64,000 nucleotides of DNA, taken from contig CAZYJD010000001.1 in assembly GCA_964647785.1 (NCBI GenBank), positions 26,148-90,147 on the forward strand, written 5' to 3'. The number at the start of each line of letters is the position of its first letter. The first letter of the stretch is position 1. Position numbers and translations under genes: made by a program. The stretch is from an uncultured Chitinophagaceae bacterium. Its GTDB lineage: Bacteria; Bacteroidota; Bacteroidia; NS11-12g; UBA9320. Shown here one piece after another: positions 3,676 through 47,492 of this stretch. The notes below the pieces were generated by a model. That model saw only the letters and a list, made by a program, of their open reading frames with translations. It was not told where the DNA came from and ran no database searches.

Positions 3676-5624
3676 TTACTGAACGCTCAGCTTTAAGCTG
3701 CGATAAACTCCTTTTCCTTTCAAGTGAATCAAATACATACCAGCATTCCAGCTTCGTGTATCGATTGTCTTTTGGTCGTATGCCGATGCACTCGTAAAGG
3801 TTTGTCGATGCACTTCTCTTCCATGAATATCAGTAGCTATGAGTTCAAGTGCTACCCCTTGAAGGTTTTCAACTTCGAGACTCAATTCATTTCGGGCCGG
3901 GTTTGGCCATGCCCTGAAAGCAGCCGTTTCATGTGTTGCCTCATCGGTGTTGAGAGAATAGCTGCTGGTGAAATAATATTCGAGGCTCTTCCCAAAATCA
4001 GGGTTGAGCAGCTCGAGAACAGGGCCATTCGGTTGGCGGAAACGCAAAAAACCGGTTCCCACCTGCGGGATGAGCGGGTAAGCCAAACCAAAGCCTTCTT
4101 TGGTGTTCACGCTAAGTTTGTAGCAGCCTGGATTGAGGTTGAGTTCATCGTTGAACAATTCTCCTCCGGCCATATTGCTTTTTTCATAAACGGTGTTTCC
4201 GTTTTCATCGGTAATTCTCAACTCCACATCGCCTGCAAGGTTGTTGTTTCTCCACCATATGCCCACTTTGCCGGGCAAAGTTTTAGGAATAACAAAACGG
4301 CTTTGCAGCTCATCGTTTTGCGTGTTTTCATCCAGCTGCCCATTGGGTCTTTCAACCCTTGCGGTGAATACCGGATCGGACTCCATGCCTTCCCAATCCC
4401 AAATTTTAAAGGGCAGGTCAATTATTTCGCTTTCCATGAAGGCAAGATTTCCTCGCCAGGTAAAACGGATTTGATTGCCCCCTTTTACCCCATACCAAAC
4501 AGTGCATTCCGTGAGGGCTTCACTTCCTTTATTGCGTATTTTAATTTTGGGTTGGGCACAGGTTGGGTTGATTCTTTTGTGCAACTCCCAATTGCTGGGT
4601 GCCAAAATATCTTCAACCTCTGCATCATAACGAAAGGAGATGTCGCCATATTCGATCAAATGGAGGCTCACCACATAGTTTCCACTGCCCTGTCCTGTAT
4701 TGTCGGCCGGAACTGGCTCTACCCCGTAATCTATCACTGCTTCTTCTTTGCCGCTCAGCCAAGGCGTGAGATCAAAATTGTAATCGGGCACGGGCGCACC
4801 GGGGCACCAACCTGCCCGTGGAGGAGCCCAGTTTCCACCTTGATCAATGATTGGGTTGAGTGCGCATTCATCGTTTTGCCAAATGTCCCATTCGAGTCGC
4901 TGAACACCATCAATGGCAATGTTGTGCTTTTTATTGGCCCATTCACAGCAGTGAATCTTATTGCTTGCAGGATCATAAGTTCCATTATGGCCATGGCCGG
5001 TTATACGGGTAATAAGTTTATAACCCTTGGTATCAGGCATCAGCTGAACAGTATCGGCCTTAAAATGGGTGTCATCGGCTACAAATTTGTATTGCCTCGA
5101 CTCCTTGTTGCGCATGAAATGCACTTTTTTCACTGGGCGGGGAGGGGTGCCAGGAATGAAGGCAAATTTTAAATCAATCAACTCCTGGGTGTTTCCGGCA
5201 CTCAAGGTTACAAGATCGTGCAGTACCGGAGCGTAATCCGTTACATCGTAAATCCATCGAAACCCTTCAGGCCCCAAGTCCAACCCAATGCCATAAGGGG
5301 TGATGAAACGCCCTATCTCATATTGGTTCACCACCCAATTGGTATCAATTTTTCCAACGGTATCGTACAGAATGTTGTAAGTAAGATAATCCCATTCGCC
5401 ACAAGCAAATTGATCTCTGGTGGTTCTCGGGTCGCATTTCAGGGTGTAGTACATGAGTATTTTCTCCCAACTTTTGCCTTCTTCAGGGAATTGCCAGCTT
5501 CCTTTTCTTTTGGTAATGTCTTCAAAGCTGAGGGTTTGCACCCATACGGTATCCTGCGCCCTAACAATGATGCTGGACATGAATAAGATGAACAAGAAGA
5601 AATGGTTCAGTTTTATTTGCATAT
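3676..5624 (-). CDS. Peptide-N-glycosidase F (PNGase F)-like protein with an N-terminal extra domain and a T9SS C-terminal sorting domain
   Basis: Internal motifs EIGRFITPYGIGLDLG and GNWAPPRAGWCPGAPVP match PNGase F (EIGRFITPYW; GNWAPDRAGWCPGMAVP). The C-terminus AWPNPARNELSLEV...GMYLIHLKGKGVYRSLKLSVQ is a type-A T9SS CTD. Start set at the signal-peptide Met MQIKLNHFFLFILFMSSIIVRAQ. Confidence 0.8.
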
Positions 5625-5677
5625 CAAATGGTTTAAACAACAAAGATACAAGAGAGGTATATAATGCCGATAAGGGC

Positions 5678-8582: not shown

Positions 8583-9569
8583 CTACTTATCCGTATTGTA
8601 GAGATCAATGATCCACCACCATTTCCAATACGCCCCTGAAAATTCATTGTTCTTCGCAACCCATGATGGGTATACGCCGATTTCCCATCCACTGAGGTTG
8701 TTTTTGTATTCGGGCATGTTGGCCACACCAAGGCGCAGACCGAAACGGTTTTTCTGTAAGTAGCCGGCTTCCAGATCATCGCCTTCAACCACTTGGGTAC
8801 TGCCATTTTTCTCCATCGCTCTAAGATCGAGAACAGGAGCATACATTAAATCGAAGTAATAAGACTTGTGCTTTCGGGCAATTTTTTCTCCAATATCGAG
8901 CTCGGTAATGTTGGCCACAAGGTCCCACATTTTGTTGATGCTTGCTCCGGCATAGATGCAGACACTGTTCATATTGGTGTAAGGCTTACCGCTGTATTCC
9001 GGCCAATTTGTATTTCCTCCCGGAATGCCCTCCATTGAAACCACAGTGCTTCTCATCAAGGCCCCTGCTCTTGCCATCAATTGATAACGTTTATCCGCAA
9101 AAGCACCATCGATGTAATTGTTCATATCCGTTCCACCGGTATTCAGCCAGATTTTTACCGGTCGATTCTCGCGATCAATGCGCAGCAGTTTAAGGGATAA
9201 ATTCGCATCGGCATAAAAGAGCTTGGCCGGCTCGTAATCGTTGAAATATCCATTTTCAGGTGCGCTCAATCTGTTTCCCGAGGCAGCAAGCCATGCACCA
9301 TCCAACACCCCCTTGTAATAAGGTGTTTGAACACGCGCCTGAAACATGAGGTTTTGTTTGATATGAAAAAACACATAAGCACCCAAGCCTACCGCAAAAC
9401 CATTGGTTGCGTTAAGGTCAAGGAAGATGGGTTCAAACCCCAAATAAAACGAGCTTGCAGCCTTGGATGGATCATTGCTCACTTCTTCATATTCCAAGTC
9501 TTGGGCACTTAAGTCGCTATGGAAAAACAAAGGAAGAATTACGAAAAAGGGGAGCAGAGCATTTTTCAT
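8583..9569 (-). CDS. Hypothetical outer-membrane/secreted protein (paralog of the 9625..10662 gene)
   Basis: Signal peptide MKNALLPFFVILPLFFHSDLSAQ. Beta-rich composition. Shares motifs YYFDLMYAPV / NRFGLRLG with the divergently transcribed neighbour. Confidence 0.55.
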   Translation of the reverse strand: MKNALLPFFVILPLFFHSDLSAQDLEYEEVSNDPSKAASSFYLGFEPIFLDLNATNGFAVGLGAYVFFHIKQNLMFQARVQTPYYKGVLDGAWLAASGNRLSAPENGYFNDYEPAKLFYADANLSLKLLRIDRENRPVKIWLNTGGTDMNNYIDGAFADKRYQLMARAGALMRSTVVSMEGIPGGNTNWPEYSGKPYTNMNSVCIYAGASINKMWDLVANITELDIGEKIARKHKSYYFDLMYAPVLDLRAMEKNGSTQVVEGDDLEAGYLQKNRFGLRLGVANMPEYKNNLSGWEIGVYPSWVAKNNEFSGAYWKWWWIIDLYNTDK

Positions 9570-9624
9570 GGTCACTTTTATGTCATGACGAAAATATATA
9601 ATTTTACACAAAAATCGGCCCATC

Positions 9625-10662
9625 ATGAAGCGTTTTGCATACCTAATTCTCTTATTTTTAGGAACCTACAGTGCAGCGATGGCGCAAGAAGTACGCTACA
9701 AAATCAAGCGAGATAACCCAGAAGATGTAAAAAACCTGATCATTCATCTTGACCCCTGGTTTGCCGATGTTTATTTCACCAACTTGGCCATGGGTTTTTC
9801 AGCACGGGCCGATTGGTTGATCAACAAGGTGGTGGACGTCAGCGTTGAGTGGCGCCGACCCTATTTTGATATGAATTGGCTGGAAGCCAGTACTTACAAA
9901 CTAGCCGATGAGGTAGGCGGTGCTGACATGAAAGACATGGCTTATATGCCACAAAACGGCTTTTCACAATACACCTACTTAGAACCCACCATTCGCCTGC
10001 ACTTGAGCGATAAGATCAAAGAAACCAACCACCACTTGGTGCTTTCAAAATCCAGCTACAGCTCGGGAAATAATAACTACAGCAACACCCAGTTCATCAA
10101 TGTACCTGGAAAATCGAGAAAAATTGTTTCGTTTGAGGGAGCTGCGTGTTGGCTGGATGTGCCGGTGCTGTATAAAGGGTTGTTCAATAGCAACCCTTCT
10201 GATTTTCAGCTTGTACACAAAGAAACCGGTATTGTTTTGCCCGCCACGGAAGATTTTGGAGGAACCATGATGCGCACCCTCACCTTCATCGGCGGATTCT
10301 CATTTCAACGCCTTGACAACCTGAAAGCACTGACCGATAAATACGGTGTGAAATATTCAACGGCATGGACCAATTTCTATTTCGATGTACTGTATGCACC
10401 CGTTGTCAATTTTGACCATGTGGTTGACGATCAGGGTTTGAAATATGAGGTAACCAACCAAAAGGTGAACCGCCTTGGATGGAGATTGGGCTACGCCTTA
10501 AAAAACACCAAAGGAACGGCCCTTTCCATGAAATTTAATGTGGGCAACAGACCGGGCTTTGAAGGCGATAACCCCTATTTCGGATCGCGTTTTTACATGG
10601 ACTTTAACTTTGGGGTATCCATTGCCAACAAAGTGAAACGCTCAACTGAAGAAAAGAAATAA
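9625..10662 (+). CDS. Hypothetical outer-membrane/secreted protein (paralog of 8583..9569)
   Basis: Signal peptide MKRFAYLILLFLGTYSAAMAQ. Motifs FYFDVLYAPV / NRLGWRLG are shared with the neighbour gene. Confidence 0.55.
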   Translation: MKRFAYLILLFLGTYSAAMAQEVRYKIKRDNPEDVKNLIIHLDPWFADVYFTNLAMGFSARADWLINKVVDVSVEWRRPYFDMNWLEASTYKLADEVGGADMKDMAYMPQNGFSQYTYLEPTIRLHLSDKIKETNHHLVLSKSSYSSGNNNYSNTQFINVPGKSRKIVSFEGAACWLDVPVLYKGLFNSNPSDFQLVHKETGIVLPATEDFGGTMMRTLTFIGGFSFQRLDNLKALTDKYGVKYSTAWTNFYFDVLYAPVVNFDHVVDDQGLKYEVTNQKVNRLGWRLGYALKNTKGTALSMKFNVGNRPGFEGDNPYFGSRFYMDFNFGVSIANKVKRSTEEKK

Positions 10663-13549: not shown

Positions 13550-15460
13550 TCATTCATGCAGGTAAGTTATACCATCCGTAGGTCTCGAATAATTGATGTT
13601 GGGGTAGGAATAGGTTGGGAAACCATTGCTCGTGGTGAATTCACCCGACTGTAACCGAATTCTGCGATATCTCGATTTCAACTCAGCGCTCACCCGAACA
13701 TTTGCAGAGCTGAACCTTGAAATATACAAACCCTTGGTATCTAGCCACCAATATTCTGAACCAAAGGTAAAAAGCAATTTACCCTGCGAAATGCCAATGA
13801 AATTATACAAAGGTGGAGGATCCCAAGATGTGCTGCCGGCATCGACCATTCTGGATTTCTTTGTGAGTACATCATACACCTTCAGCTGACGATAATAACC
13901 CGAACTCGTGCCTTTGCTGATGTATACCTTATTCTCATAAATTATTTGATGATCATCAATAACCACCGGATTGTAACCCTGCTGCACAGGTACTGTTTTA
14001 GTGGTAGGAAAAAGGGTGTCTTTTGTATATTTCCATATCCTTGCACCGATTAATATGAACGAATCATTGATGATTTGGGGGACAATATTTAACCTTGATC
14101 CTTTGTCCGGGTTTTTCAAGCTGAACATTGCATCTCGGGCACGGCTGTAAAACGAAACATCACCGGCTTCATAAAAACATTTGCCTCCACCGCAACGCCA
14201 AAGATCTCCATCATTCAACCGGATCATATTTCCATAATGATCTATGACTTGGCCGAGGCTTGAGAAATTGCCCACTTTGAGGTCAGCCGAGTCCAAATGC
14301 CCCACATTCGAGTTCACGTAGAAATAAGGGTATCGCATTAAAATATTGTTGCTGTTCAATTTCTTGTTTGCATAAGCGGTATCCACCCGACCCGAGGGCT
14401 GCTTTTTAAGAATAAAGGTGTCAACTCGGTAATAGGCCGTATCTGCCTCTAACCACAACAAAGCACCCGATAAGTTATAATCCACTCCAAACCACATATC
14501 CGGAATTGTCCCGTTTTGTCCACTGCCACCCCCCGAGTTGGTAATAAAGGCTTTAACTGCCTCTAAAGGAACCTTGCCTCCTCCATTGCTCAATACAAGG
14601 GTGTCATTGATGAGCGCAATGCGCTGTATCTCATTGGTGCTATCGTTGTCCAGATTCTTCGGAAAATTCAGCTTTACCGCATTGCCATTCGATATCTCAA
14701 GACTGTCGCCTTTTACTGATAAGGTTTGCAATTCATTGCTGGGATCATTGTCCAGATTGGCAGGAAAATTCAGCTTCACGGTATTGCCATTTGATATGCC
14801 TAGACTATCTCCATTCACTGAAAGCGTTTGCAATTCATTGCCCGGATCATTGTCGAGATTGGCTGGAAAATTCAGCTTCACGGTATTTGCTCCGGAGATC
14901 GATAGGCTGTCGCCCTGTATGGCCAGCGATTGAATCTCATTGCCCACCACCGTATCGCGATCCCTGTTGCTTAAATAGGTGATTTTATCCGTCACGACGG
15001 CAATGGCACTGTCCGTTTGATTCGACATACTTTGCTCCGAGAAAAAGGCGTAAGGCACCGACCAAAACTTTTCCAATGAAGTGAGGGTGTAAGTGTTGTC
15101 ATTGTTAAAATCAATTTCCACTTGAAGGTGGGCTGTTCCCAATTCCCATGGGATGGCTTCAAAATCACCTGAAATGACCGTTCCCTGCCCTATGATGAGG
15201 TTAAAAACCCCGTATGCATCGGTGTTCGTTTCGTGGTATTCCTGATAGCTTTGTGTGCCATTGGGATATTGATCGAAAATGGTGAAACGCACCTTGATGG
15301 CTTTGTTGGACCAATAGACCGATTGGGGGTTTTCACCCGCCACGGAATAAGACCCATCCTTTACTGCCACCGCTTGGTAGGCAATTCCCTGCGGTGTATT
15401 CTGCGCTTGCACAGAAAAAGCAAGCGCGAAGCCAATGAGTAGAAGTTTTATTCTTTTCAT
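13550..15460 (-). CDS. Repeat-containing secreted/surface protein, paralog A (636 aa)
   Basis: Signal peptide MKRIKLLLIGFALAFSVQAQ. The N-terminal ~150 aa are identical to paralog B. 34-aa tandem repeats (NELQTLSVNGDSLGISNGNTVKLNFPANLDNDP). A unique ~330-aa C-terminal domain. Confidence 0.7.
   Translation of the reverse strand: MKRIKLLLIGFALAFSVQAQNTPQGIAYQAVAVKDGSYSVAGENPQSVYWSNKAIKVRFTIFDQYPNGTQSYQEYHETNTDAYGVFNLIIGQGTVISGDFEAIPWELGTAHLQVEIDFNNDNTYTLTSLEKFWSVPYAFFSEQSMSNQTDSAIAVVTDKITYLSNRDRDTVVGNEIQSLAIQGDSLSISGANTVKLNFPANLDNDPGNELQTLSVNGDSLGISNGNTVKLNFPANLDNDPSNELQTLSVKGDSLEISNGNAVKLNFPKNLDNDSTNEIQRIALINDTLVLSNGGGKVPLEAVKAFITNSGGGSGQNGTIPDMWFGVDYNLSGALLWLEADTAYYRVDTFILKKQPSGRVDTAYANKKLNSNNILMRYPYFYVNSNVGHLDSADLKVGNFSSLGQVIDHYGNMIRLNDGDLWRCGGGKCFYEAGDVSFYSRARDAMFSLKNPDKGSRLNIVPQIINDSFILIGARIWKYTKDTLFPTTKTVPVQQGYNPVVIDDHQIIYENKVYISKGTSSGYYRQLKVYDVLTKKSRMVDAGSTSWDPPPLYNFIGISQGKLLFTFGSEYWWLDTKGLYISRFSSANVRVSAELKSRYRRIRLQSGEFTTSNGFPTYSYPNINYSRPTDGITYLHE
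14560..14960 (-). repeat. In-frame 102-bp tandem repeat array (about 3 good copies plus degenerate flanking copies) in paralog A
   Basis: Unit starts at 14623, 14725 and 14827 on the + strand (tttgcaattcattgc...ggaaaattcagcttcacggtattgcc...). Period 102 bp = 34 aa. Confidence 0.85.
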
Positions 15461-15471
15461 TTGATGTAGAT
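14850..15471 (-). repeat. Segmental duplication copy 1 (about 620 bp; the last ~430 bp are 100% identical to 16423..16853)
   Basis: Direct comparison of the two stretches. Offset 1382 bp. Identity includes the start codon and the 11 bp upstream of it. Confidence 0.9.
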
Positions 15472-15504
15472 CATTTGAATATAAACGCCCTTAAGGCTGA
15501 TAAA

Positions 15505-16842
15505 TCAAAACTGAATGATTGCAAATCCTCTGGCATAGGGCGGTGCACAACAGTCAGGCACTTCATTCCCCACATAACCATTGGGTATGTAGGCGGGAAT
15601 CACCAATGCTTTGTAATCGTAGCCTATGACACTTCCATTTGTTCCGCGAGCTCCTGCCCTGGCGCAACCACCGGGACAATAGGCATTTCCTCCATTTCCT
15701 CCTCCCTCGGCATAATAATTTCCGAAATAGGTGTTGGTTGAATTGGTTTTTACATCCCCAATGGTTATCGCATAACTTTGTCCTGGAACAACAGTGATGG
15801 TATCTCTGAGGTAACCACCATTGCCACCAACCCCACCATTTGCTTCAGAATTCGTTGAATTGTTGCAATACCCATTGCAATATGCTCTGTTGCCATTTTT
15901 ACCTCCCCCTCCCCAGAGTTCAATGATGATGCGATTCACTCCTTGAGGACATTTCCAAAGCGTGTCTGAATCAAACCCTATAAACCGGCCGCTTGAAAGA
16001 AAAGTGGTGGTATCCTGATAATTTCTGATGTAATCGTTGATGTCTTGCAATGCAATGTTGCCCCCACCATGACTCAAGCGGATGGTGTCATTTGTTAGTA
16101 CAATCCGCTGTAACTCATTGGTACTATCGTTGTCCAAATTCTTTGGAAACAATAACTTCACAGTATTGCCATTCAATATCTCAAGACTGTCGCCTTTTAC
16201 CGATAATGTTTGCAGTTCATTGCCCGGATCATTGTCGAGATTGGCTGGAAAATTCAGCTTCACGGTGTTCGCTCCGGAGATCGATAGGCTGTCGCCCTGT
16301 ATGGACAGCGATTGAATCTCATTGCCCACTACTGTATCGCGATCCCTGTTGCTTAAATAGGTGATTTTGTCCGTCACCACTGCAATGGCACTGTCCGTTT
16401 GATCCGTTACGCTTTGCTCTGAGAAAAAGGCGTAAGGCACCGACCAAAACTTTTCCAATGAAGTGAGGGTGTAAGTGTTGTCATTGTTAAAATCAATTTC
16501 CACTTGAAGGTGGGCTGTTCCCAATTCCCATGGGATGGCTTCAAAATCACCTGAAATGACCGTTCCCTGCCCTATGATGAGGTTAAAAACCCCGTATGCA
16601 TCGGTGTTCGTTTCGTGGTATTCCTGATAGCTTTGTGTGCCATTGGGATATTGATCGAAAATGGTGAAACGCACCTTGATGGCTTTGTTGGACCAATAGA
16701 CCGATTGGGGGTTTTCACCCGCCACGGAATAAGACCCATCCTTTACTGCCACCGCTTGGTAGGCAATTCCCTGCGGTGTATTCTGCGCTTGCACAGAAAA
16801 AGCAAGCGCGAAGCCAATGAGTAGAAGTTTTATTCTTTTCAT
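15505..16842 (-). CDS. Repeat-containing secreted/surface protein, paralog B (445 aa) with a glycine-rich Cys-containing C-terminal domain
   Basis: Same signal peptide and N-terminal 150 aa as paralog A. Three 34-aa repeats. C-terminus WGGGGKNGNRAYCNGYCNN...GGVGGNGGY...EGGGNGGNAYCPGGCARAGARG...CCAPPY. Start ATG overlaps the stop of the upstream gene (ATGA). Confidence 0.7.
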   Translation of the reverse strand: MKRIKLLLIGFALAFSVQAQNTPQGIAYQAVAVKDGSYSVAGENPQSVYWSNKAIKVRFTIFDQYPNGTQSYQEYHETNTDAYGVFNLIIGQGTVISGDFEAIPWELGTAHLQVEIDFNNDNTYTLTSLEKFWSVPYAFFSEQSVTDQTDSAIAVVTDKITYLSNRDRDTVVGNEIQSLSIQGDSLSISGANTVKLNFPANLDNDPGNELQTLSVKGDSLEILNGNTVKLLFPKNLDNDSTNELQRIVLTNDTIRLSHGGGNIALQDINDYIRNYQDTTTFLSSGRFIGFDSDTLWKCPQGVNRIIIELWGGGGKNGNRAYCNGYCNNSTNSEANGGVGGNGGYLRDTITVVPGQSYAITIGDVKTNSTNTYFGNYYAEGGGNGGNAYCPGGCARAGARGTNGSVIGYDYKALVIPAYIPNGYVGNEVPDCCAPPYARGFAIIQF

Positions 16843-16853
16843 TTGATGTAGAT
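16232..16853 (-). repeat. Segmental duplication copy 2 (pairs with 14850..15471)
   Basis: See copy 1. Includes the last 11 bp of the upstream small CTD gene (atctacatcaaatga). The same relic is found upstream of paralog A. Confidence 0.9.
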
Positions 16854-17297
16854 GAGTTTTTTACTGTAAACGCGATGATCGGCAAGGGTGAGATGAATGG
16901 TGTACAAACCCGATGAAAAATTCTTCATGGATATGCGTTTAGCCCAACCCTGGTAACAGGTTTTACCAAACACATCCACCACCACCACATCGGTATAGGT
17001 TTCATTTGTTTCGATGTTCACCCAATCGGAAGTTGGATTGGGGTAAATGCTCAACTGTATGTCTTCGAGCATGGATTGAGGTCGCAAATGAAGAAAGGGT
17101 TTTGTTTGTATGCTCCGTCCGTCACTGAATTTATTTGCATTCACAACAGGAGAAGAAACCGGGTTAAAGGCCACCACGGCTGTTTTGCCCGAAACTGAAG
17201 AACCAAAGGAGCCAATGGCAGATCGTGCAATTTTCTGTGCGTCGGCCTCACTGCAAAGCAAAGTGAAGACCATTAGAAAGAATGCTGTGCTTCTCAT
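16839..17297 (-). CDS. Small T9SS C-terminal-sorting-domain protein (152 aa)
   Basis: Signal peptide MRSTAFFLMVFTLLCSEADAQ. C-terminal IYPNPTSDWVNIETN...SGLYTIHLTLADHRVYSKKLIYIK matches the type-A T9SS CTD pattern. 4-nt overlaps with both neighbouring genes. Confidence 0.7.
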   Translation of the reverse strand: MRSTAFFLMVFTLLCSEADAQKIARSAIGSFGSSVSGKTAVVAFNPVSSPVVNANKFSDGRSIQTKPFLHLRPQSMLEDIQLSIYPNPTSDWVNIETNETYTDVVVVDVFGKTCYQGWAKRISMKNFSSGLYTIHLTLADHRVYSKKLIYIK

Positions 17298-17917
17298 TGG
17301 TGAATTTCTATTCTAAGACCCAATGAAAGCTGATTGATTCTCAATTCATCTGCATCTAAATCAGCATTTGACAGCATATAGGCGTATGAAACATAAGGAT
17401 GGATGGCCAAATGATCTGCAGCATAGCCTGCAAAATTGATTTCGCCACCTAGGAAAAAGTTGGTTTTGGTGAACAACTCTTCTGTTTTGCTAACCGCCCC
17501 ATTCACCATTTGCGAGGATGCCGTTAGAAAGCTGTAAGAAGGCACTATGGCAAACGACTGAATGAAGAATTCCCGGGGTGTTTCCTTGCCCTGTGAAAGC
17601 GGCAATGCATAGCGTATGGGAAGGTCGAGTTTTAATGAAGAGTGGGTGAATGAAGTGCTCAATTCGCTGTTTACTGCGCTGGCTTGCACCGTAGAGGCAC
17701 TGAGCAATGTGGAGACCGACAATTTCTTGAGATCACCAAAAAACAACCCAATGCGGGTGTCTGCATGGTAGTGGCAATCATAGTTCAGTTCACCATTTGT
17801 TCCGCTGAACTGCACCTGAGGCTGGCTCAGGCCCTGATAAAATTGCAGGCCTATTTTTTGGGCAAAAGTGCCCAAAGATCCTAAAAGCAGTAGACCCACC
17901 ATTATACTTTTCTTCAT
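17294..17917 (-). CDS. Small outer-membrane beta-barrel protein (porin/OmpA-like family)
   Basis: 207 aa with a signal peptide, alternating hydrophobic beta-strand pattern, aromatic-rich strands and a C-terminal EIHQ. First gene of the operon. Confidence 0.6.
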   Translation of the reverse strand: MKKSIMVGLLLLGSLGTFAQKIGLQFYQGLSQPQVQFSGTNGELNYDCHYHADTRIGLFFGDLKKLSVSTLLSASTVQASAVNSELSTSFTHSSLKLDLPIRYALPLSQGKETPREFFIQSFAIVPSYSFLTASSQMVNGAVSKTEELFTKTNFFLGGEINFAGYAADHLAIHPYVSYAYMLSNADLDADELRINQLSLGLRIEIHQ

Positions 17918-22584: not shown

Positions 22585-23718
22585 TTGAAGCGCATGAAGA
22601 AGATTATGATGTTGTTTTCCCTGGCGGCCATTGTTGGGTTGAGCTCTTGTAGCGAGGAAACAACCCAACCTCAGGCAACACTCCAACTCCCTTCCACCTA
22701 TGATGCAAAGAACTTTGAGCGCAATGCAGGGGAGCAAATAGGACTTATAAATCGGTTGAACACCCTTGTATCGGAGGCCAAAAAAGGAAGATCCGCAGGC
22801 GTGGCGGTTGATTATTCCAACCTTTTATCCTTGTACAGCGCAAACCAACCATCCCTTCAAAGCACCACCACCAGCTTTTACAATGAACTTCTCATTGGCA
22901 ATGAGGGCTATTTGAACCAATTGGCGCTTGCCAGTGGTGACACCTTTAATCCGGTTATGCCCAACATCCATGGCGGAGTTTATGGTGGCTATCTGTTTGA
23001 TGAAAATGGGTTGGAGCCTGAGCAGCTGATTGAAAAAGGATTGTTCGGAGCCTTCTCATACCACCAGGCGAGCATGTTGTTGGAAGAGCTGAATGAAGAA
23101 ACCGCAGATCAGGTGCTTGCCTTATTTGGTGCAAACCCCTCATTCCCCAATACCCCCACGGCAGGCAATGCTGCCAATCCGGATATGCACATGGCCAATT
23201 ACGCAGCGAGGCGCAGCGATATCAACAACAACAACAGCTTGTACCGACAAATGGAACGGGCTTTCATTCAATTGCAAGCTGCCGCCAAGGCCGGCGATGA
23301 TTTTGCCGCTGAACGGAATGAGGCCATTTCACAAATAAAAACCATCTGGGAACGGATCAATGCCGCCACCATCATCAATTATTGCCACAGCGTTATTGCC
23401 GGCATGAGCGCAACCAATCCCACCGAAGCCCAGAAAGCATCAGCCTTGCATGCCGCCTCTGAAGCCATCGGGTTCCTTCAGGGATGGAAAACCCTTCCTC
23501 AAAAGCACAAAATCATTACCGATGCACAAATCGATCAGTTGCTGGCACTCTTTTTGGCGGATGCGGGCAATGAAGCGCTTCATGAACTGGCTGTTCAACC
23601 TGAGAGCGTTTTACCAAACTTCATTCAGGCAATCGACCTGCTGAAAAGTATTTACGGCTTTAGCGCCGAAGAAATTGAAAGTTTTAAAACCAACTACGTC
23701 AGTTCTCAAAACCGCTAA
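22585..23718 (+). CDS. Lipoprotein, imelysin-associated (DUF4856-like)
   Basis: Lipoprotein signal MKRMKKIMMLFSLAAIVGLSSC. Helical composition. Immediately upstream of an imelysin-like gene, as in the conserved Bacteroidetes cluster. Assignment is from recall of the family architecture, not from a search. Confidence 0.45.
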   Translation: MKRMKKIMMLFSLAAIVGLSSCSEETTQPQATLQLPSTYDAKNFERNAGEQIGLINRLNTLVSEAKKGRSAGVAVDYSNLLSLYSANQPSLQSTTTSFYNELLIGNEGYLNQLALASGDTFNPVMPNIHGGVYGGYLFDENGLEPEQLIEKGLFGAFSYHQASMLLEELNEETADQVLALFGANPSFPNTPTAGNAANPDMHMANYAARRSDINNNNSLYRQMERAFIQLQAAAKAGDDFAAERNEAISQIKTIWERINAATIINYCHSVIAGMSATNPTEAQKASALHAASEAIGFLQGWKTLPQKHKIITDAQIDQLLALFLADAGNEALHELAVQPESVLPNFIQAIDLLKSIYGFSAEEIESFKTNYVSSQNR

Positions 23719-23723
23719 ACACC

Positions 23724-24836
23724 ATGGGTAAAAGAGTCGGGCTTTATACCGCATTGCTGATTTTCAGCTTTTTTTCTCTGAGCCTCAGCTCATGCCAGGA
23801 AGAAAATCCGGGTGAAGAACTCGGCTTCAACAAAAACGCCTTCCTACTGCATCAGGCCGATGAAATCATCCTTCCCGCATTTCAGCAACTGCATACATCG
23901 GCCAATGAGTTGTTCCGTGCTCTGGACTCTTTTTGCCAAGCACCTGATTCTGTCCGGCTCATGCATGCCCGAGAAATATGGTGGAACACCTATCGCTATT
24001 ACTTAGGGGTGAGCGCATTCAATTTTGGTCCTGCCGCGGCTGAAGGGCTGCAAAAAGACCTCTCCGAAGAAATCGCCATCTTTCCTATAGATGCGGTGGC
24101 CATCGAACAAAAGATCGAAAGCGGAAATTTTGCCCTCAACGACTTTAAACGGGATAGCAGGGGGCTCTTAACCATTGAATATTTACTGTTTCATAATTCT
24201 GTAAATCAAACCATTGAAGATTTTAATTCAAGTAATAGAAGAGATTACACTTTGCAGGTATCAACCCAAGTGAAAGAAAGGATTTTTGCCGTTTTGCAAC
24301 GCTGGAACAACTCGTATAGGCAAGCCTTCATATCCAACAATGGCTCTGGAGCAGGCTCATCGGTTAGCTTGTTGTACAATGCCTTCGTACAATCTTTTGA
24401 AGCCACCAAGAACTTCCGCCTCGGGGTTCCATTGGGGCTGAGAGCAGGTCAAAATGGCGCAGAACCCCAAAGGGTTGAATGCCTATACAGCGGAAAAGGT
24501 GCCGAGGCTTTGCAAATTCAATTGAAAACGCTCTACGGCATATATGAGGGTCAAAGCCTGTTATCAGATCACAACAGCCTGGGTTTTAAAGCCTATTTAT
24601 TGTCGGTATACGGTGGTCCGCAACTGGTGAACGAAACTGAGGCATCGTATGAAAACATCGTAAATCAGCTGAATGAACTGAATAGAAATTCTGGTTTGGA
24701 TGTTCAAATTCAAACCGACCCCTTAGCGCTGAAGGCATTGCATACTTCTCTGCAAAAACACACACGCTTTTTTAAAAGCGATATGTCTTCCTTGCTGGGC
24801 ATTGCCATCACCTATGTAAGCGGCGATGGTGACTAA
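23724..24836 (+). CDS. Imelysin-like (IrpA/peptidase M75 family) lipoprotein
   Basis: Lipoprotein signal ...FSLSLSSC. HxxE-containing segment LMHAREIWWNTYRY. Size about 370 aa. Sits next to HTTM and TonB-receptor genes. Confidence 0.5.
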   Translation: MGKRVGLYTALLIFSFFSLSLSSCQEENPGEELGFNKNAFLLHQADEIILPAFQQLHTSANELFRALDSFCQAPDSVRLMHAREIWWNTYRYYLGVSAFNFGPAAAEGLQKDLSEEIAIFPIDAVAIEQKIESGNFALNDFKRDSRGLLTIEYLLFHNSVNQTIEDFNSSNRRDYTLQVSTQVKERIFAVLQRWNNSYRQAFISNNGSGAGSSVSLLYNAFVQSFEATKNFRLGVPLGLRAGQNGAEPQRVECLYSGKGAEALQIQLKTLYGIYEGQSLLSDHNSLGFKAYLLSVYGGPQLVNETEASYENIVNQLNELNRNSGLDVQIQTDPLALKALHTSLQKHTRFFKSDMSSLLGIAITYVSGDGD

Positions 24837-26178
24837 GTACAAAACTTTGCTGAACAAACCGATTCCCTCCTCCAGTCTGGCTTTCTTCCGCTGGATATTC
24901 GGGCTCATGATGCTCATCAGCAGCTTGCGCTTTTGGATGAAGGGGTGGATCCCCACACATTTCACTGAAACCAAACTGCAATTCAAATATTTTGGATTTG
25001 AATGGGTGGAGGTGCTTCCCCTGCCCATGATGTATGCCTTGCACGCTCTGCTCATCGGTGCCTCCATCGCCTTTATGCTCGGTTGGCACTACCGAATTGC
25101 CGCCGTGTTGTTGTTTCTGAGCTTCACTTATTTGCAACTCATTGACTTAACCTACTACCTCAACCACTATTATTTTATAAGCCTTGTAAGCCTGCTGATG
25201 ATCTTTTTGCCGGCAGCCCATTTTTACGCCCTGGATGTGAAAAGCGGCCGAGTGGCTGAAATGAAAGAAGTGCCCGCATGGACGGTTTGGAGCATCAAAG
25301 GCCTGTTGGGCATTGTTTACGTCTATGCTGGTCTGGCCAAAATTCAACCCGAATGGTTGCTGGAAGCGCTTCCGCTCAGGATATGGTTGCCCGCCCATGC
25401 TGAAATGCCCCTCTTGGGTCCGCTTTTTGGCTGGGAATACAGTCCTTGGTTGTTCAGCTGGGCAGGCATGCTCTTCGATTGCAGCATTTTCTTTTTCCTG
25501 CTCTGGAAACGCAGCCGAATCATGGCATATGTTGCCGTTTTGCTCTTTCACGGCATCACCGGCATGCTGTTTCAAATTGGCATCTTTCCGATGGCCATGA
25601 TCTTGAGTACCCTCATTTTCTTTTCTGCCAAACTTCACGAGCTGCTGCTTCAAAAGCTGTGTGCATTTTGCATTCCTGAAAGGGCGCAAACCCCAATGGT
25701 CCGCAAAAAAAACTGGCATCTGAAGGGTGCCGGACTCGCCCTCTGGTCGGTCTTTTTTGCCTTTCAACTGCTTTTTCCATGGAGGTATTTGCTCTATCCC
25801 GGTGCTCATTTCTGGACCGAAGAAGGCTATCGATTTGGTTGGCGGGTGATGCTGGTGGAAAAAAGTGGGAATGCCGACTTTTTCATTCGTGAACACGGCA
25901 AACAAAGTGAACAACTGGTGCAGAATGCTGACTTTTTAAGCCGGCATCAGGAAAAACAGATGGCCTTTCAACCCGATATGATTCTACAATACGCCCATTG
26001 GCTGCAAAAGCACTACCAAAAAATGGGCATGAATATCGACCGAATACGAGCCGAAGTGTATGTAACCCTCAATGGTCGCGCGAGCAGACTCTTGATTGAC
26101 AGCAGTCAAAACCTGCTTGAGTTAGAAGACAACTGGCAACACAAAAATTGGATTTTACCCCATCCCGATGTCCGTTAA
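24826..26178 (+). CDS. HTTM-domain (vitamin K-dependent gamma-carboxylase-like) membrane protein
   Basis: N-terminal LAFFRWIFGLMMLISSLRF followed by multiple TM helices. 450 aa. Start overlaps the upstream gene by 11 nt. Confidence 0.75.
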   Translation: MVTKYKTLLNKPIPSSSLAFFRWIFGLMMLISSLRFWMKGWIPTHFTETKLQFKYFGFEWVEVLPLPMMYALHALLIGASIAFMLGWHYRIAAVLLFLSFTYLQLIDLTYYLNHYYFISLVSLLMIFLPAAHFYALDVKSGRVAEMKEVPAWTVWSIKGLLGIVYVYAGLAKIQPEWLLEALPLRIWLPAHAEMPLLGPLFGWEYSPWLFSWAGMLFDCSIFFFLLWKRSRIMAYVAVLLFHGITGMLFQIGIFPMAMILSTLIFFSAKLHELLLQKLCAFCIPERAQTPMVRKKNWHLKGAGLALWSVFFAFQLLFPWRYLLYPGAHFWTEEGYRFGWRVMLVEKSGNADFFIREHGKQSEQLVQNADFLSRHQEKQMAFQPDMILQYAHWLQKHYQKMGMNIDRIRAEVYVTLNGRASRLLIDSSQNLLELEDNWQHKNWILPHPDVR

Positions 26179-28639
26179 AGCGCAACACATAAAGAAACCA
26201 TGCCAAGGCGCCGGCATGCTCTGGGTTTTGTTGGGTATGCTGATGTTTCCGAACCTCCGCAGCAGTGCACAACAAATACAAGGACTTGTTTTGGGCAAAG
26301 AAGGCAAAGCCCTTGCCAATGCCACACTGATACTCAAAGGACCCACCGTACGCATGAGCTACGGCGATGAAGATGGAACCTTTATTTTCAAGGATGTTGC
26401 CCCAGGCCGATGGCTACTCGTTGCCATGGCAAAGGGCTACGAACCCAATAAAATGGATGTATTGATTAAAGAGGGTGAAAGCCTGCAACTTCAAATCAGC
26501 CTCATTCAGTTGGAATACGAATTTGAATCGGCTGAAGTAAGGGCCCGCAGAGAGCGGCACTTCGGAATCCGCAAGATGCGCCCCATCGAAGACTTTGGGA
26601 TCTACGATGCAAAAAAAACAGAATTGATACTGCCCGATCAGCAATTGCAAAACAAGGCCACCAACAATGCCCGACAAACGTATTCAAAAGTCGTGGGGCT
26701 GAATATTTGGGAATCAGATGGCGGCGGACTTCAATTGGGCATTGGGGGCAGAGGACTGAGCCCCGATAGGTCTTCCAATTTTAATATGCGGCAAAATGGC
26801 TATGACATTTCTGCCGATGCCCTGGGCTACCCCGAAAGTTATTACACCCCACCGCTGGAAGCCATTCAACAAATTGAAATCATCCGGGGCGCTGCCTCAC
26901 TGCAATACGGAACCCAGTTCGGTGGCATGATCAACTTTCGGATGAAAGAAGCTGACAGCACTGAAAAATGGCGCTTGGAAAGCCGGCAAACCGCAGGCAG
27001 CTGGGGTTTCTTCAACAGCTCTAACAGCCTTGCCCTTAGCGGTAAAAAATTCAGTACTTACGCTTATTATCAATACAAAAGAGGCAATGGCTGGCGCGAA
27101 AACAGCGACTTTAATGCCCATACCGCCTATTGGCATTTAAAGTACTCCGGTCAAAAACTATGTTTAAACAGCAATGTAACGCATATGTCGTACCTTGCTC
27201 AACAAGCAGGTGGGCTCACCGATCGTTTGTTTGAAGAAAATCCGCGGCAATCCTTGCGACCTAGAAATTGGTTTCAGATCAACTGGAATTTGTTTTCGTT
27301 GAGTGCAGACTACCATTTCAGCAAAAACACCCGGCTCAATGTGCGAAATTTTGCACTGCTTGCCTCCCGCCATTCACTCGGCAATCTCGAGCGCATCAAT
27401 GTAAGTGATGCCACGGTTGAAAACAGAACCCTCATCAGTGGTCGGTTCTTGAACTTTGGCAATGAAACCCGATTGATACACACCTTCAACCCCAGGCATA
27501 CCATACTGGCCGGCATGCGCTTATACGATGGCCATTCAACAGCCATTCAAGGAGACGCCAACGGAAGTGCTAAGGCTGATTTTCAATTGCTTTCTCCCGA
27601 AAACCCTGAGGGTTCTAATTATGCATTCTCCAATCTTAATGGGAGCTTTTTTGTGGAATATTTATGGCAGATCCACCCCAAATGGAGTGTAACACCGGGG
27701 CTTCGTATAGAGTCTATTGAAACCGCTTCCGATGGCTATTACCGACAGCGGGTGTTTGATTTTGCAGGCAATCTCATTGCCGATAAGCGGGTGGAAGAAC
27801 AATCAGAAAGAACCCGAAATTTTGCCCTTGGCGGCCTGGGGATGAGTTTCCGCCCCAATTACCGGCATGAGTTCTATGGCAATTTCAGCCAAAACTATCG
27901 CGCCATCAATTTCAGCGACTTGCGCATTGTGAATCCAAACTTTCAAATTGATGACAACATTCAAGATGAACGCGGGTACACCATCGACCTCGGGTATCGC
28001 GGAATCTTGGGACAAAAACTTCGCTTGGACGGAGGACTGTTTTATTTGGCCTACAACAACAAAATCGGGCAAATGCTCAAAAGTGATCAACCTCCGCTTT
28101 ACCTCGATTATCGCCTGCGCACCAATATTTCAAGGGCTCGAAGCATGGGGGCTGAATTGCTCATTGAAACAGAACTCAACGAATGGATCAAAACGAAAAA
28201 CCTTCAGCACCGATGGGTTGTGTTCACCAATCTAGCCTTTACCGATGCTCGTTACATCGGGTCAGAAGACCGAAGCATTGAAGGGAACAAAGTAGAAATG
28301 GTGCCCTCATTTATTGGCAGAGCCGGCCTTCAATACACACATAAAAACTTGATGATGGCCATACAATACCACTATGTGCACGAACATTTCAGCGATGCCA
28401 GCAATGCCGTGCAAACCAGTACTGCCGTTGAAGGCATCATACCCTCTTACCAAATTGCTGACCTGAGCATACAGTACCAGCGAAAAAACTGGCGGGTTGA
28501 ATGCAGCATCAATAACCTGCTCAATGCGCATTATTTCACAAGGAGAGCCGTATCTTATCCCGGACCGGGCATCATACCTGCCGATGGCAGAGGGTTCTAC
28601 CTCACCTTGGCTTATATCACCGCAAAAAAGAGCAGTTGA
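26168..28639 (+). CDS. TonB-dependent receptor with an N-terminal carboxypeptidase-regulatory-like domain
   Basis: Signal peptide (alternative start MLWVLLGMLMFPN at 26216). CarbopepD-like GLVLGKEGKALANATLILKG. Plug and barrel motifs (IEIIRGAASLQYG). About 820 aa. Start overlaps the HTTM gene stop. Confidence 0.85.
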   Translation: MSVKAQHIKKPCQGAGMLWVLLGMLMFPNLRSSAQQIQGLVLGKEGKALANATLILKGPTVRMSYGDEDGTFIFKDVAPGRWLLVAMAKGYEPNKMDVLIKEGESLQLQISLIQLEYEFESAEVRARRERHFGIRKMRPIEDFGIYDAKKTELILPDQQLQNKATNNARQTYSKVVGLNIWESDGGGLQLGIGGRGLSPDRSSNFNMRQNGYDISADALGYPESYYTPPLEAIQQIEIIRGAASLQYGTQFGGMINFRMKEADSTEKWRLESRQTAGSWGFFNSSNSLALSGKKFSTYAYYQYKRGNGWRENSDFNAHTAYWHLKYSGQKLCLNSNVTHMSYLAQQAGGLTDRLFEENPRQSLRPRNWFQINWNLFSLSADYHFSKNTRLNVRNFALLASRHSLGNLERINVSDATVENRTLISGRFLNFGNETRLIHTFNPRHTILAGMRLYDGHSTAIQGDANGSAKADFQLLSPENPEGSNYAFSNLNGSFFVEYLWQIHPKWSVTPGLRIESIETASDGYYRQRVFDFAGNLIADKRVEEQSERTRNFALGGLGMSFRPNYRHEFYGNFSQNYRAINFSDLRIVNPNFQIDDNIQDERGYTIDLGYRGILGQKLRLDGGLFYLAYNNKIGQMLKSDQPPLYLDYRLRTNISRARSMGAELLIETELNEWIKTKNLQHRWVVFTNLAFTDARYIGSEDRSIEGNKVEMVPSFIGRAGLQYTHKNLMMAIQYHYVHEHFSDASNAVQTSTAVEGIIPSYQIADLSIQYQRKNWRVECSINNLLNAHYFTRRAVSYPGPGIIPADGRGFYLTLAYITAKKSS

Positions 28640-38578: not shown

Positions 38579-38638
38579 TATTCGAAGGTATTTGATTTTA
38601 TGAGAACAAACCCTGATCAATGCCAGAACAGGGTAAAA

Positions 38639-47000: not shown

Positions 47001-47377
47001 AGGGTCATGACAACATCAAGAATTCTACCTCCATCATCGATTTCATCTTTAGAATGCTCGGTTTTGAATACCTCGGAAGAACGGATCTCGTGCAAATTCC
47101 TCCCAAGAAGGAAGATGCACCAGCTGGACAAGCTTCAGCAACGGCTGAAGTTCAACCAACTAAGCCCGCTGTTCCGAACCCCGTGAGCATTGAAAAACAA
47201 AATGACGCTGCTGGTGGAAGTGCATCTGCTCAAGCCAGAGGTGCTAGTGGTTTAGAAGAATATTTTGAGGGCCTACAAAGCGATGCTCCCGCTTGCGATG
47301 TATGTGGACATATGACCGTGAGAAGCGGCACCTGTTATAAATGTACCAATTGCGGCAACTCTTTGGGTTGCAGCTGA
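44042..47377 (+). CDS. nrdJ: Ribonucleotide reductase class II (adenosylcobalamin-dependent), long form with a C-terminal Zn-ribbon
   Basis: [21 protein letters not shown] active-site region. [19 protein letters not shown]-terminal CDVCGH...[13 protein letters not shown]. Confidence 0.9.
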
Positions 47378-47410
47378 TACATTCATTTTGAATTGAATAA
47401 GGAATGCATT

Positions 47411-47440
47411 GAGCCGGCCAAAAGCCGGCTCTTGTATTTT
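47411..47440 (+). terminator. Rho-independent terminator after nrdJ
   Basis: gagccggccaaaagccggctc hairpin followed by ttgtatttt. Confidence 0.75.
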
Positions 47441-47492
47441 GGTGGCAATCGAACTGATTTAATTGATAACTTTGCTCAGCACAGCCATTGAA

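What the first reader, a model, noticed from the sequence alone, without database searches (positions are those of the whole stretch)
3676..5624. PNGase F homolog exported by the T9SS
Motifs EIGRFITPY and GNWAPPRAGWCPG match the PNGase F catalytic domain. The protein also has a ~200-aa N-terminal extra domain, as in 'type II' PNGase F, and a T9SS type-A CTD. Bacterial N-glycanases are uncommon. A T9SS-delivered one implies extracellular or surface deglycosylation of host or environmental N-glycoproteins.
Basis: partly seen in the sequence, partly recalled or inferred. Interest (0 to 1): 0.5.

Follow-up and report, generated by a model that had tools for sequence, protein, structure and literature searches.

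The report
T9SS-exported PNGase F-family N-glycanase homolog
This gene encodes a secreted bacterial enzyme of the PNGase F family, which cuts whole N-linked sugar chains off glycoproteins. It carries the export tag of the Bacteroidota type IX secretion system, and it is a genuine but fairly ordinary member of a large, already recognised enzyme family.

Summary

The catalytic Asp (D78), Glu (E227) and Arg (R269) are present. They are almost invariant across about 250 family sequences. Residues 568-648 are a type-A T9SS sorting domain.

One claim is wrong. There is no ~200-aa N-terminal domain and no type II (PNGase F-II) resemblance. The PNGase core starts right after the signal peptide. The extra ~240 aa are two C-terminal Ig-like beta-sandwiches (326-557) placed before the sorting domain.

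This architecture is common. At least 1113 homologs and 303 species genomes carry it, mostly uncultured aquatic Bacteroidota. T9SS-tagged PNGase F-family enzymes (PNGaseL, PNGaseDo) were characterised in 2025.

The most likely function is Sec export, then T9SS export, then extracellular or surface removal of N-glycans from eukaryotic glycoproteins. Activity and specificity are untested. Verdict: new member of a known kind, low-to-moderate interest.

The parts
3676..5622 (-). Complete CDS, 648 aa plus stop: PNGase F-family protein with a T9SS CTD
   Evidence: ORF listing and translation. The ATG at 5622 lies 55 nt after the polA stop. Homolog P0001 (94% identical) is called with the same 648-aa extent on 4 contigs.
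5641..5648 (-). TATCTTTG, a match to the Bacteroidota -7 promoter box (TAnnTTTG), 18 nt upstream of the ATG
   Evidence: Read directly from the sequence. This is a consensus match only. The consensus comes from my own knowledge and function was not tested.
5557..5622 (-). Sec signal peptide, aa 1-22 (MQIKLNHFFLFILFMSSIIVRA|QD)
   Evidence: The sequence has a hydrophobic core followed by V-R-A|Q. The AF2 model shows an N-terminal helix at 6-17 with low pLDDT. Homologs share ..A|QDT.. at the same place. No signal-peptide predictor was available, so this is inferred.
5146..5556 (-). PNGase F-like N-terminal jelly-roll domain (aa 23-159). Contains C63-C74, W77-D78-Y79 (catalytic Asp codon 5389-5391) and EIGRFITPY (5293-5319).
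4648..5145 (-). PNGase F-like C-terminal jelly-roll domain (aa 160-325). Contains H210 (4993-4995), catalytic E227 (4942-4944), R269 (4816-4818) and GNWAPPRAGWCPG (4798-4836).
   Evidence: Pfam PF09113 E=3.7e-10, 40.2 bits against a cutoff of 25. Conservation: E227 243/249, R269 246/249, H210 241/249, W272 247/249.
4288..4647 (-). Accessory beta-sandwich 1 (aa 326-445), Ig/Fn3/CARDB-like
3952..4287 (-). Accessory beta-sandwich 2 (aa 446-557)
   Evidence: AF2 model. The tandem of aa 326-566 is found in 1645 clusters at 50% identity. In these it almost always lies directly after a PNGase-like core and before a CTD.
3922..3951 (-). Flexible linker (aa 558-567)
   Evidence: pLDDT is below 50 for residues 558-567.
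3679..3921 (-). T9SS type-A C-terminal sorting domain (aa 568-648), with PNPA (573-576), GMYLI (628-632) and a KLSVQ end

Best explanation
The gene encodes a secreted peptide-N4-(N-acetyl-beta-glucosaminyl)asparagine amidase of the PNGase F superfamily. Its catalytic module resembles type I PNGase F.

Proposed route and action:
1. The N-terminal signal peptide takes the protein through Sec into the periplasm, where it folds and its disulfides (C63-C74, C253-C273) form.
2. The C-terminal type-A sorting domain is recognised by the type IX secretion translocon and carries the protein across the outer membrane.
3. The sorting domain is then removed. The enzyme is either released or tethered to the cell surface.
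4. Outside the cell, the two side-by-side jelly-roll domains bind the chitobiose core of an N-glycan. The binding residues are W77-D78-Y79 on one loop and H210/E227 on another.
5. D78, E227 and R269 hydrolyse the Asn-GlcNAc amide bond. This releases the intact glycan and converts Asn to Asp.
6. The two Ig-like sandwiches act as a spacer and/or a substrate-binding arm.

The likely biological role is foraging. The enzyme would strip N-glycans from eukaryotic (algal, protist, fungal or invertebrate) glycoproteins so that glycans and peptides become accessible.

Shown here: homology, predicted fold, conservation of active-site residues, and presence of the sorting domain. Inferred: signal peptide cleavage, actual secretion, enzymatic activity, substrate range, and the role of the accessory domains.
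For: Homology to the full PNGase F fold:
- phmmer E=1e-22 and family profile E=2.3e-37.
- hhalign 99.8% probability over 274 columns at 31% identity.

Active site:
- D60->D78, E206->E227, R248->R269, W59->W77, Y85->Y110, W207->W228 and W251->W272.
- Conservation across about 250 family sequences: D78 198/199, E227 243/249, R269 246/249, H210 241/249.
- The two apparent substitutions (R61->Y79, W191->H210) fit the superfamily rule in PMC12381499: 'aromatic-D-positive/aromatic' plus 'histidine and glutamic acid', with PNGase F itself the exception.
- D60 and E206 equivalents are essential even in distant zebrafish Ngly2 (PMC12753239).

Precedent:
- All six diverse superfamily members tested in PMC12381499 had PNGase activity on at least some substrates. 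Two of them carry T9SS signals.

Export:
- CTD hits are above the curated cutoffs.
- The window holds two more type-A CTD proteins, at 35951-38620 and 16839-17297. This organism therefore uses T9SS sorting domains.
Against: - No enzymatic or secretion data exist for this protein or any close relative that I could identify.
- PF09112 (the N-domain model) is below its gathering score.
- The hairpin that in PNGase F carries E118 and W120 is 5 residues shorter here. It carries a family-specific N144-x-Q146-E147 instead. Whether E147 takes over the role of E118 could not be checked without model coordinates.
- The C204-C208 disulfide of PNGase F is not conserved.
- The genomic context is housekeeping (polA, an lpxH-like phosphoesterase, prfA). 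No glycoside hydrolases or SusC/D lie nearby, either in the window or in 83 related loci.
- No T9SS machinery gene was found among the window ORFs that were scanned.
Confidence: 0.75

Rival explanations
1. The protein has the same fold and catalytic machinery but a different substrate. It could be an amidase for non-canonical glycoconjugates, such as core-modified algal or protist N-glycans, bacterial or archaeal N-linked glycans, or free glycosylasparagine or glycopeptides only. It would then show little or no activity on the standard N-glycoproteins cleaved by PNGase F.
For: - The glycan-contacting hairpin is remodelled in a way that is invariant across the family. It is 5 residues shorter, W120 is absent and N144/Q146/E147 are conserved.
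- Specificity varies widely among superfamily members, and most tested enzymes could not cut mammalian complex glycans.
- An M14-like carboxypeptidase lies directly upstream in 26 of 83 related loci. This could hint at glycopeptide processing.
Against: - The residues that contact the chitobiose core in the superfamily consensus (aromatic-D-aromatic, His+Glu, W272) are all present. The canonical GlcNAc-GlcNAc-Asn linkage therefore remains the simplest substrate.
- The M14 adjacency is restricted to one lineage (Crocinitomicaceae/Fluviicola) and is absent from the window.
Confidence: 0.17
2. The protein is a non-catalytic PNGase-fold lectin or adhesin displayed on the cell surface by the T9SS. 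The jelly-roll pair and Ig-like domains would only bind glycans.
For: - The architecture (beta-sandwich domains plus a CTD) resembles many T9SS surface adhesins.
- There is no glycan-utilisation gene context.
- PNGase F mutants are used as glycan-binding reagents (my own knowledge).
Against: The catalytic D78, E227 and R269 are near-invariant across about 250 sequences that share only 30-50% identity overall. That pattern indicates selection for catalysis rather than binding alone.
Confidence: 0.05
3. One reading: a type II PNGase F (PNGase F-II-like) with an N-terminal bowl-like domain of about 200 aa.
Against: - The PNGase core begins 1-3 residues after the predicted signal peptide cleavage site.
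- There is no sequence hit to PNGase F-II at E<=1 with either the single sequence or the family profile.
- The additional domains are C-terminal.
Confidence: 0.01

Closest known systems
PNGase F (Elizabethkingia meningoseptica; PDB 1PNF, 1PGS, 3PMS)
   Same: - Two tandem eight-stranded jelly-roll domains, aligned end to end (F residues 4-300).
- 29-31% identity.
- Catalytic D60, E206 and R248 are conserved, as are W59, Y85, W207 and W251.
- Two of the three disulfides are conserved.
- The mature N-terminus is at an equivalent position.
   Different: - R61->Tyr and W191->His.
- The E118/W120 hairpin is 5 residues shorter, with N-x-Q-E instead.
- The C204-C208 disulfide is not conserved.
- About 240 aa of C-terminal Ig-like domains and a T9SS CTD are added. 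These are absent from PNGase F, which is a 314-aa mature protein.
PNGaseL (Flavobacterium akiainvivens) and PNGaseDo (Draconibacterium orientale), Bakshani et al. 2025, PMC12381499
   Same: - Both are PNGase F-superfamily enzymes from Bacteroidota with C-terminal T9SS secretion signals.
- PNGaseDo is described as having three beta-sheet accessory modules after the catalytic module. This matches the layout found here if the CTD is counted.
- The active-site rule given in that paper (aromatic-D-aromatic/positive; His+Glu) fits this protein.
   Different: Their sequences and accessions were not available in the held text. Orthology could therefore not be tested. Those enzymes have measured activities and this one has none.
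PNGase F-II (E. meningoseptica; PDB 4R4X, 4R4Z) and PNGasePm (7ZGN)
   Different: - They have an N-terminal bowl-like domain, which is absent here.
- They require core alpha-1,3-fucose, which sits in a dedicated pocket.
- They give no detectable sequence similarity in phmmer or hmmsearch at E<=1.
Zebrafish Ngly2 (acid PNGase; PDB 9LWG)
   Same: - PNGase F-type domain with the same catalytic Asp and Glu, shown to be essential by mutagenesis.
- Histidines replace PNGase F's chitobiose-binding residues, as with H210 here.
   Different: It is a eukaryotic lysosomal homodimer with N-terminal thioredoxin-like and PA domains. It has no T9SS CTD and shares only 20% identity.

Membership tests
PNGase F superfamily (Pfam PF09112 + PF09113 / IPR015197; EC 3.5.1.52) | Two side-by-side eight-stranded antiparallel beta jelly-roll domains | tested here: met
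PNGase F superfamily (Pfam PF09112 + PF09113 / IPR015197; EC 3.5.1.52) | Catalytic Asp (PNGase F D60) within an aromatic-Asp-aromatic/positive loop | tested here: met
   W77-D78-Y79. D is present in 198/199 family sequences that include this segment. The rule is from PMC12381499 and the D60 role from PMC12753239.
PNGase F superfamily (Pfam PF09112 + PF09113 / IPR015197; EC 3.5.1.52) | Catalytic Glu (E206), with His (or Trp) on the same side of the first GlcNAc, and Arg (R248) | tested here: met
   E227 243/249, H210 241/249, R269 246/249. The role of R248 is from my own knowledge (Kuhn et al. 1995) and was not re-read here.
PNGase F superfamily (Pfam PF09112 + PF09113 / IPR015197; EC 3.5.1.52) | Scores above the curated Pfam thresholds for both domain models | tested here: inconclusive
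PNGase F superfamily (Pfam PF09112 + PF09113 / IPR015197; EC 3.5.1.52) | Equivalent of E118/W120 contacting the chitobiose | tested here: inconclusive
   E118 aligns to the variable T145 and W120 aligns to the invariant E147. The hairpin is 5 residues shorter.
PNGase F superfamily (Pfam PF09112 + PF09113 / IPR015197; EC 3.5.1.52) | Hydrolysis of the Asn-GlcNAc amide bond of N-glycoproteins | not testable with these tools
   Needs a recombinant enzyme assay.
Type II PNGase F (PNGase F-II) | N-terminal bowl-like (NBL) domain of about 200 aa preceding the catalytic module | tested here: not met
   The catalytic module starts at aa 23-26, immediately after the signal peptide. The model shows no N-terminal domain.
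Type II PNGase F (PNGase F-II) | Closer similarity to PNGase F-II than to PNGase F | tested here: not met
T9SS cargo with a type-A C-terminal domain | A beta-sandwich of about 70-80 aa at the extreme C-terminus matching TIGR04183/PF18962 | tested here: met
T9SS cargo with a type-A C-terminal domain | N-terminal Sec signal peptide | tested here: met
   Judged by inspection only. The sequence has a basic and hydrophobic N-terminus and a VRA|Q site, and the A|QDT junction is conserved in homologs. No dedicated predictor was available.
T9SS cargo with a type-A C-terminal domain | T9SS machinery encoded in the same genome | not testable with these tools
   None was found among the window ORFs scanned. 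Indirect support comes from two further type-A CTD proteins in the same 64 kb and from the taxonomic placement of relatives in Bacteroidota.
T9SS cargo with a type-A C-terminal domain | T9SS-dependent export and CTD removal | not testable with these tools
   Needs a secretome comparison of wild type against a T9SS mutant.

The most novel reading that the evidence does not exclude
This widespread but unassayed subfamily may have a glycan specificity different from PNGase F. Its distinguishing features are a type I-like core, a shortened and family-invariant N-x-Q-E hairpin in place of E118/W120, and a dedicated tandem of Ig-like modules. Long-form paralogs carry a ~500-aa LamG-containing insert nested in the N-domain. 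The subfamily could, for example, tolerate or require core modifications typical of algal, protist or invertebrate N-glycans. That would make it an ecologically important route of glycoprotein turnover by aquatic Bacteroidota and a possible new glycobiology reagent.
Probability: 0.3. Interest if true: 0.4.

Novelty: new member of a known kind. Interest (0 to 1): 0.22.

Why it matters
If the protein is active, free-living aquatic Bacteroidota would commonly export an N-glycanase through the T9SS. The family was found in at least 303 species genomes. This would add a deglycosylation step to models of how these bacteria recycle eukaryotic glycoproteins.

The subfamily could also supply PNGases with useful specificities, as PNGaseL did. 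The concept itself is not new, however. A PNGase F-type enzyme with a T9SS signal is already published, so this protein mainly extends a known family.

Tried and rejected
- The finding's coordinates (end 5624) give a frame full of stops. I corrected the end to 5622.
- My first numbering attempts were wrong because of `mafft --keeplength` and `hmmalign --trim`. I redid them.
- I guessed that the 1111-aa and 374-aa ORFs at 44042-48587 might be PorU and PorV. They are a B12-dependent ribonucleotide reductase and a PagL-like protein.
- I looked for a conserved glycan-utilisation neighbourhood by clustering ORFs from 83 related loci. Only lineage-restricted neighbours appeared: an M14-like peptidase in 26 loci, an FAD oxidoreductase in 17, and an lpxH-like phosphoesterase in 13. 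No GH or SusC/D genes were found.
- I tried to obtain the PNGaseL and PNGaseDo sequences or accessions from the paper, but none are held. A search for 'PNGase Bb' found no paper.
- Foldseek against AFDB was unavailable.
- Model coordinates are not exposed, so the 3D position of E147 relative to E118 could not be checked.
- Weak Pfam hints for the accessory region (CBM_2 E=0.099, FlgD_ig E=0.16) were rejected as not significant.

Full report
**Observation**

The region holds one long ORF on the minus strand, with its stop at 3676-3678. The mechanical ORF starts at a TTG at 5718, inside the 3' end of polA. The credible start is the ATG at 5622-5620, 55 nt after the polA stop.

The finding's end coordinate (5624) is 2 nt off and translates out of frame. 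The product is 648 aa. A 94%-identical homolog (P0001) is called with exactly this extent on four metagenomic contigs.

- EIGRFITPY at aa 102-110 (window 5293-5319).
- GNWAPPRAGWCPG at aa 263-275 (window 4798-4836).

**Is it a PNGase F homolog beyond two motifs?**

Yes. Every method agrees.
- phmmer against all PDB sequences finds only PNGase F: 1PNF E=1.1e-22, query 39-292 against chain 27-271.
- A profile of 49 family members raises this to E=2.3e-37. It also detects zebrafish Ngly2 (3e-11) and the B. fragilis putative PNGase 3KS7 (3e-4).
- hhalign of the family profile against PNGase F gives 99.8% probability, E=4.8e-28 and 274 aligned columns. The alignment covers PNGase F residues 4-300 of 314 and query residues 23-323.
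- Pfam PF09113 is above its gathering score. PF09112 is only weak.

**Active site**

I recalled the PNGase F sequence from memory and verified its numbering against the PDB alignment. The mapping onto the query is as follows.

| PNGase F | Query |
|---|---|
| D60 | D78 |
| E206 | E227 |
| R248 | R269 |
| W59 | W77 |
| Y85 | Y110 |
| W207 | W228 |
| W251 | W272 |
| C51-C56 | C63-C74 |
| C231-C252 | C253-C273 |

Conservation was counted over 266 family sequences, made up of the best 120 homologs and 145 further cluster representatives at 50% identity:
- D78: 198/199
- E227: 243/249
- R269: 246/249
- H210: 241/249
- W272: 247/249

D60 and E206 are the accepted catalytic residues. Their equivalents are essential even in zebrafish Ngly2 (PMC12753239).

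Two differences from PNGase F are R61->Y79 and W191->H210. Both are the norm for the superfamily. Bakshani et al. describe an 'aromatic-D-positive/aromatic' loop and a 'histidine and glutamic acid' loop, and note that PNGase F is the exception with Trp (PMC12381499).

One real difference is the hairpin that carries E118 and W120 in PNGase F. Here it is five residues shorter and carries a family-conserved N144-x-Q146-E147. Whether E147 substitutes for E118 could not be tested without model coordinates.

There is no N-terminal extra domain. The predicted signal peptide (aa 1-22...VRA|QD) is followed directly by the PNGase core. Q23-D24-T25 align with residues 2-5 of mature PNGase F. From my own knowledge, the A|Q junction fits the Bacteroidota 'Q-rule' for signal peptidase I substrates.

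PNGase F-II, which defines type II, gives no sequence hit at E<=1.

The additional sequence is C-terminal:
- A low-confidence linker at aa 558-567.
- The sorting domain at aa 568-648.

**T9SS sorting domain**

The window also encodes two more type-A CTD proteins:
- An 889-aa Fn3/Ig protein at 35951-38620.
- A 152-aa mini-cargo at 16839-17297.

No T9SS machinery gene was found among the ORFs I scanned, so the presence of the apparatus is inferred.

**Family and context**

The protein belongs to a large family.
- 1113 proteins match at E<1e-5.
- Relatives occur in 303 species-representative genomes. Nearly all are uncultured Bacteroidota: Crocinitomicaceae, Fluviicola, Cryomorphaceae, Saprospiraceae, Chitinophagaceae, plus some Ignavibacteria and Kapabacteria.
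- One cultured carrier is Fluviicola chungangensis MAH-3.
- The best genome match is only 52% identical (UBA6491).

The Ig-like tandem alone retrieves 1645 clusters at 50% identity. In 132 of the best 150 it follows a PNGase-like core and precedes a CTD. Most of the rest look like N-terminally truncated fragments. Two proteins carry repeats of the first sandwich only.

Most annotations are 'hypothetical' or 'T9SS type A sorting domain-containing protein'. One protein is annotated 'peptide-N-glycosidase F-related protein'.

The neighbours in the window are housekeeping genes: polA, an lpxH-like metallophosphoesterase, and prfA. The same order occurs in the 94% relative. Clustering ORFs from 83 related loci found no glycoside hydrolases or SusC/D. 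The only conserved neighbours were lineage-restricted, including an M14-like carboxypeptidase directly upstream in 26 loci.

A TAnnTTTG-type -7 box (TATCTTTG, 5648-5641) lies 18 nt upstream of the ATG. This is a consensus match only.

**Mechanism proposed**

1. Sec export.
2. Periplasmic folding.
3. CTD-dependent passage through the T9SS, followed by CTD removal.
4. Release into the medium or tethering to the cell surface.
5. Extracellular hydrolysis of the Asn-GlcNAc amide bond of N-glycoproteins by the D78/E227/R269 site.
6. The Ig-like tandem acts as a spacer or a substrate-binding arm.

The fold, the active-site conservation and the sorting domain are shown here. Export, activity and specificity are inferred.

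Support by analogy comes from PMC12381499. All six phylogenetically diverse PNGase F-superfamily proteins tested there were active on at least some glycoproteins. Two of them, PNGaseL and PNGaseDo, carry C-terminal T9SS signals. PNGaseDo has three beta-sheet accessory modules, a layout that sounds like this one. I could not obtain their sequences, so orthology is untested.

**Rivals**

- Same chemistry but a non-standard substrate range (0.17). This is suggested by the remodelled hairpin.
- A non-catalytic lectin or adhesin (0.05). This is unlikely given near-invariant catalytic residues at 30-50% overall identity.
- The type II reading (0.01). The alignments have refuted it.

**Novelty and verdict**

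It is a new, unassayed member of a known kind.
- The PNGase F superfamily is large. The cited study downloaded 1897 InterPro entries.
- T9SS-tagged members have been published and assayed.
- The present architecture is common in environmental Bacteroidota.

Interest is low to moderate (0.22). The most novel reading still open is that this subfamily has a distinct glycan specificity of ecological or reagent value (probability about 0.3).

Noticed in passing
Homologs P0004-P0120 (e.g. P0015, P0046); hairpin equivalent to window protein aa 88-99 (window 5326-5361, minus strand): Long-form relatives (~1100-1170 aa) have the N-terminal segment with CGEWDY at aa ~20-90. EIGRFITPY appears only at aa ~590-600. 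A ~500-aa insert containing a LamG-like jelly-roll (PF13385) is therefore nested inside a hairpin of the PNGase N-domain, and the catalytic Asp is retained. A ~745-aa intermediate form and one fusion to an endonuclease/exonuclease/phosphatase domain (P0103) also exist.
   Followed up: partly
window 35951-38620 (-): A second T9SS type-A CTD protein (889 aa). It has an Fn3/Ig-like domain just before the CTD, and its N-terminal ~740 aa have no Pfam assignment.
   Followed up: partly
window 13550-17917 (-): A run of four same-strand genes for signal-peptide proteins. The two that were scanned (13550-15460 and 15505-16842) have no Pfam match. The run includes a very small (152 aa) protein at 16839-17297 that is little more than a signal peptide plus a T9SS type-A CTD. 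Start and stop codons overlap between neighbours, which suggests an operon.
   Followed up: partly
window 22585-28639 (+): A cluster of a DUF4856 protein, an imelysin (Peptidase_M75), an HTTM / vitamin-K-dependent gamma-carboxylase-like membrane protein, and a TonB-dependent receptor. It looks like a probable iron-uptake cluster.
   Followed up: no
window 8583-9626 (-) and 9625-10662 (+): Two divergently oriented ~345-aa proteins with signal peptides and no Pfam hit. Their ORF ends overlap by 2 nt. The same pair sits next to polA in the 94% relative (L001).
   Followed up: no
Loci L013, L024, L025, L029 and others (26 of 83 related loci): In the Crocinitomicaceae/Fluviicola lineage, an M14-like zinc carboxypeptidase (~567 aa) lies immediately upstream of the PNGase-like gene on the same strand. 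An FAD-dependent oxidoreductase lies downstream in 17 loci. Neither is present in the window.
   Followed up: partly
window 44042-47377 (+) and 47463-48587 (+): A B12-dependent (class II) ribonucleotide reductase NrdJ, followed by a PagL-like lipid A deacylase-domain protein.
   Followed up: no
Loci L012, L046, L060; protein P0114: A few family members sit in MAGs labelled Armatimonadota, Akkermansia, Hyphomicrobiales or Moraxellaceae. Because they carry T9SS CTDs, these are probably mis-binned Bacteroidota contigs.
   Followed up: no
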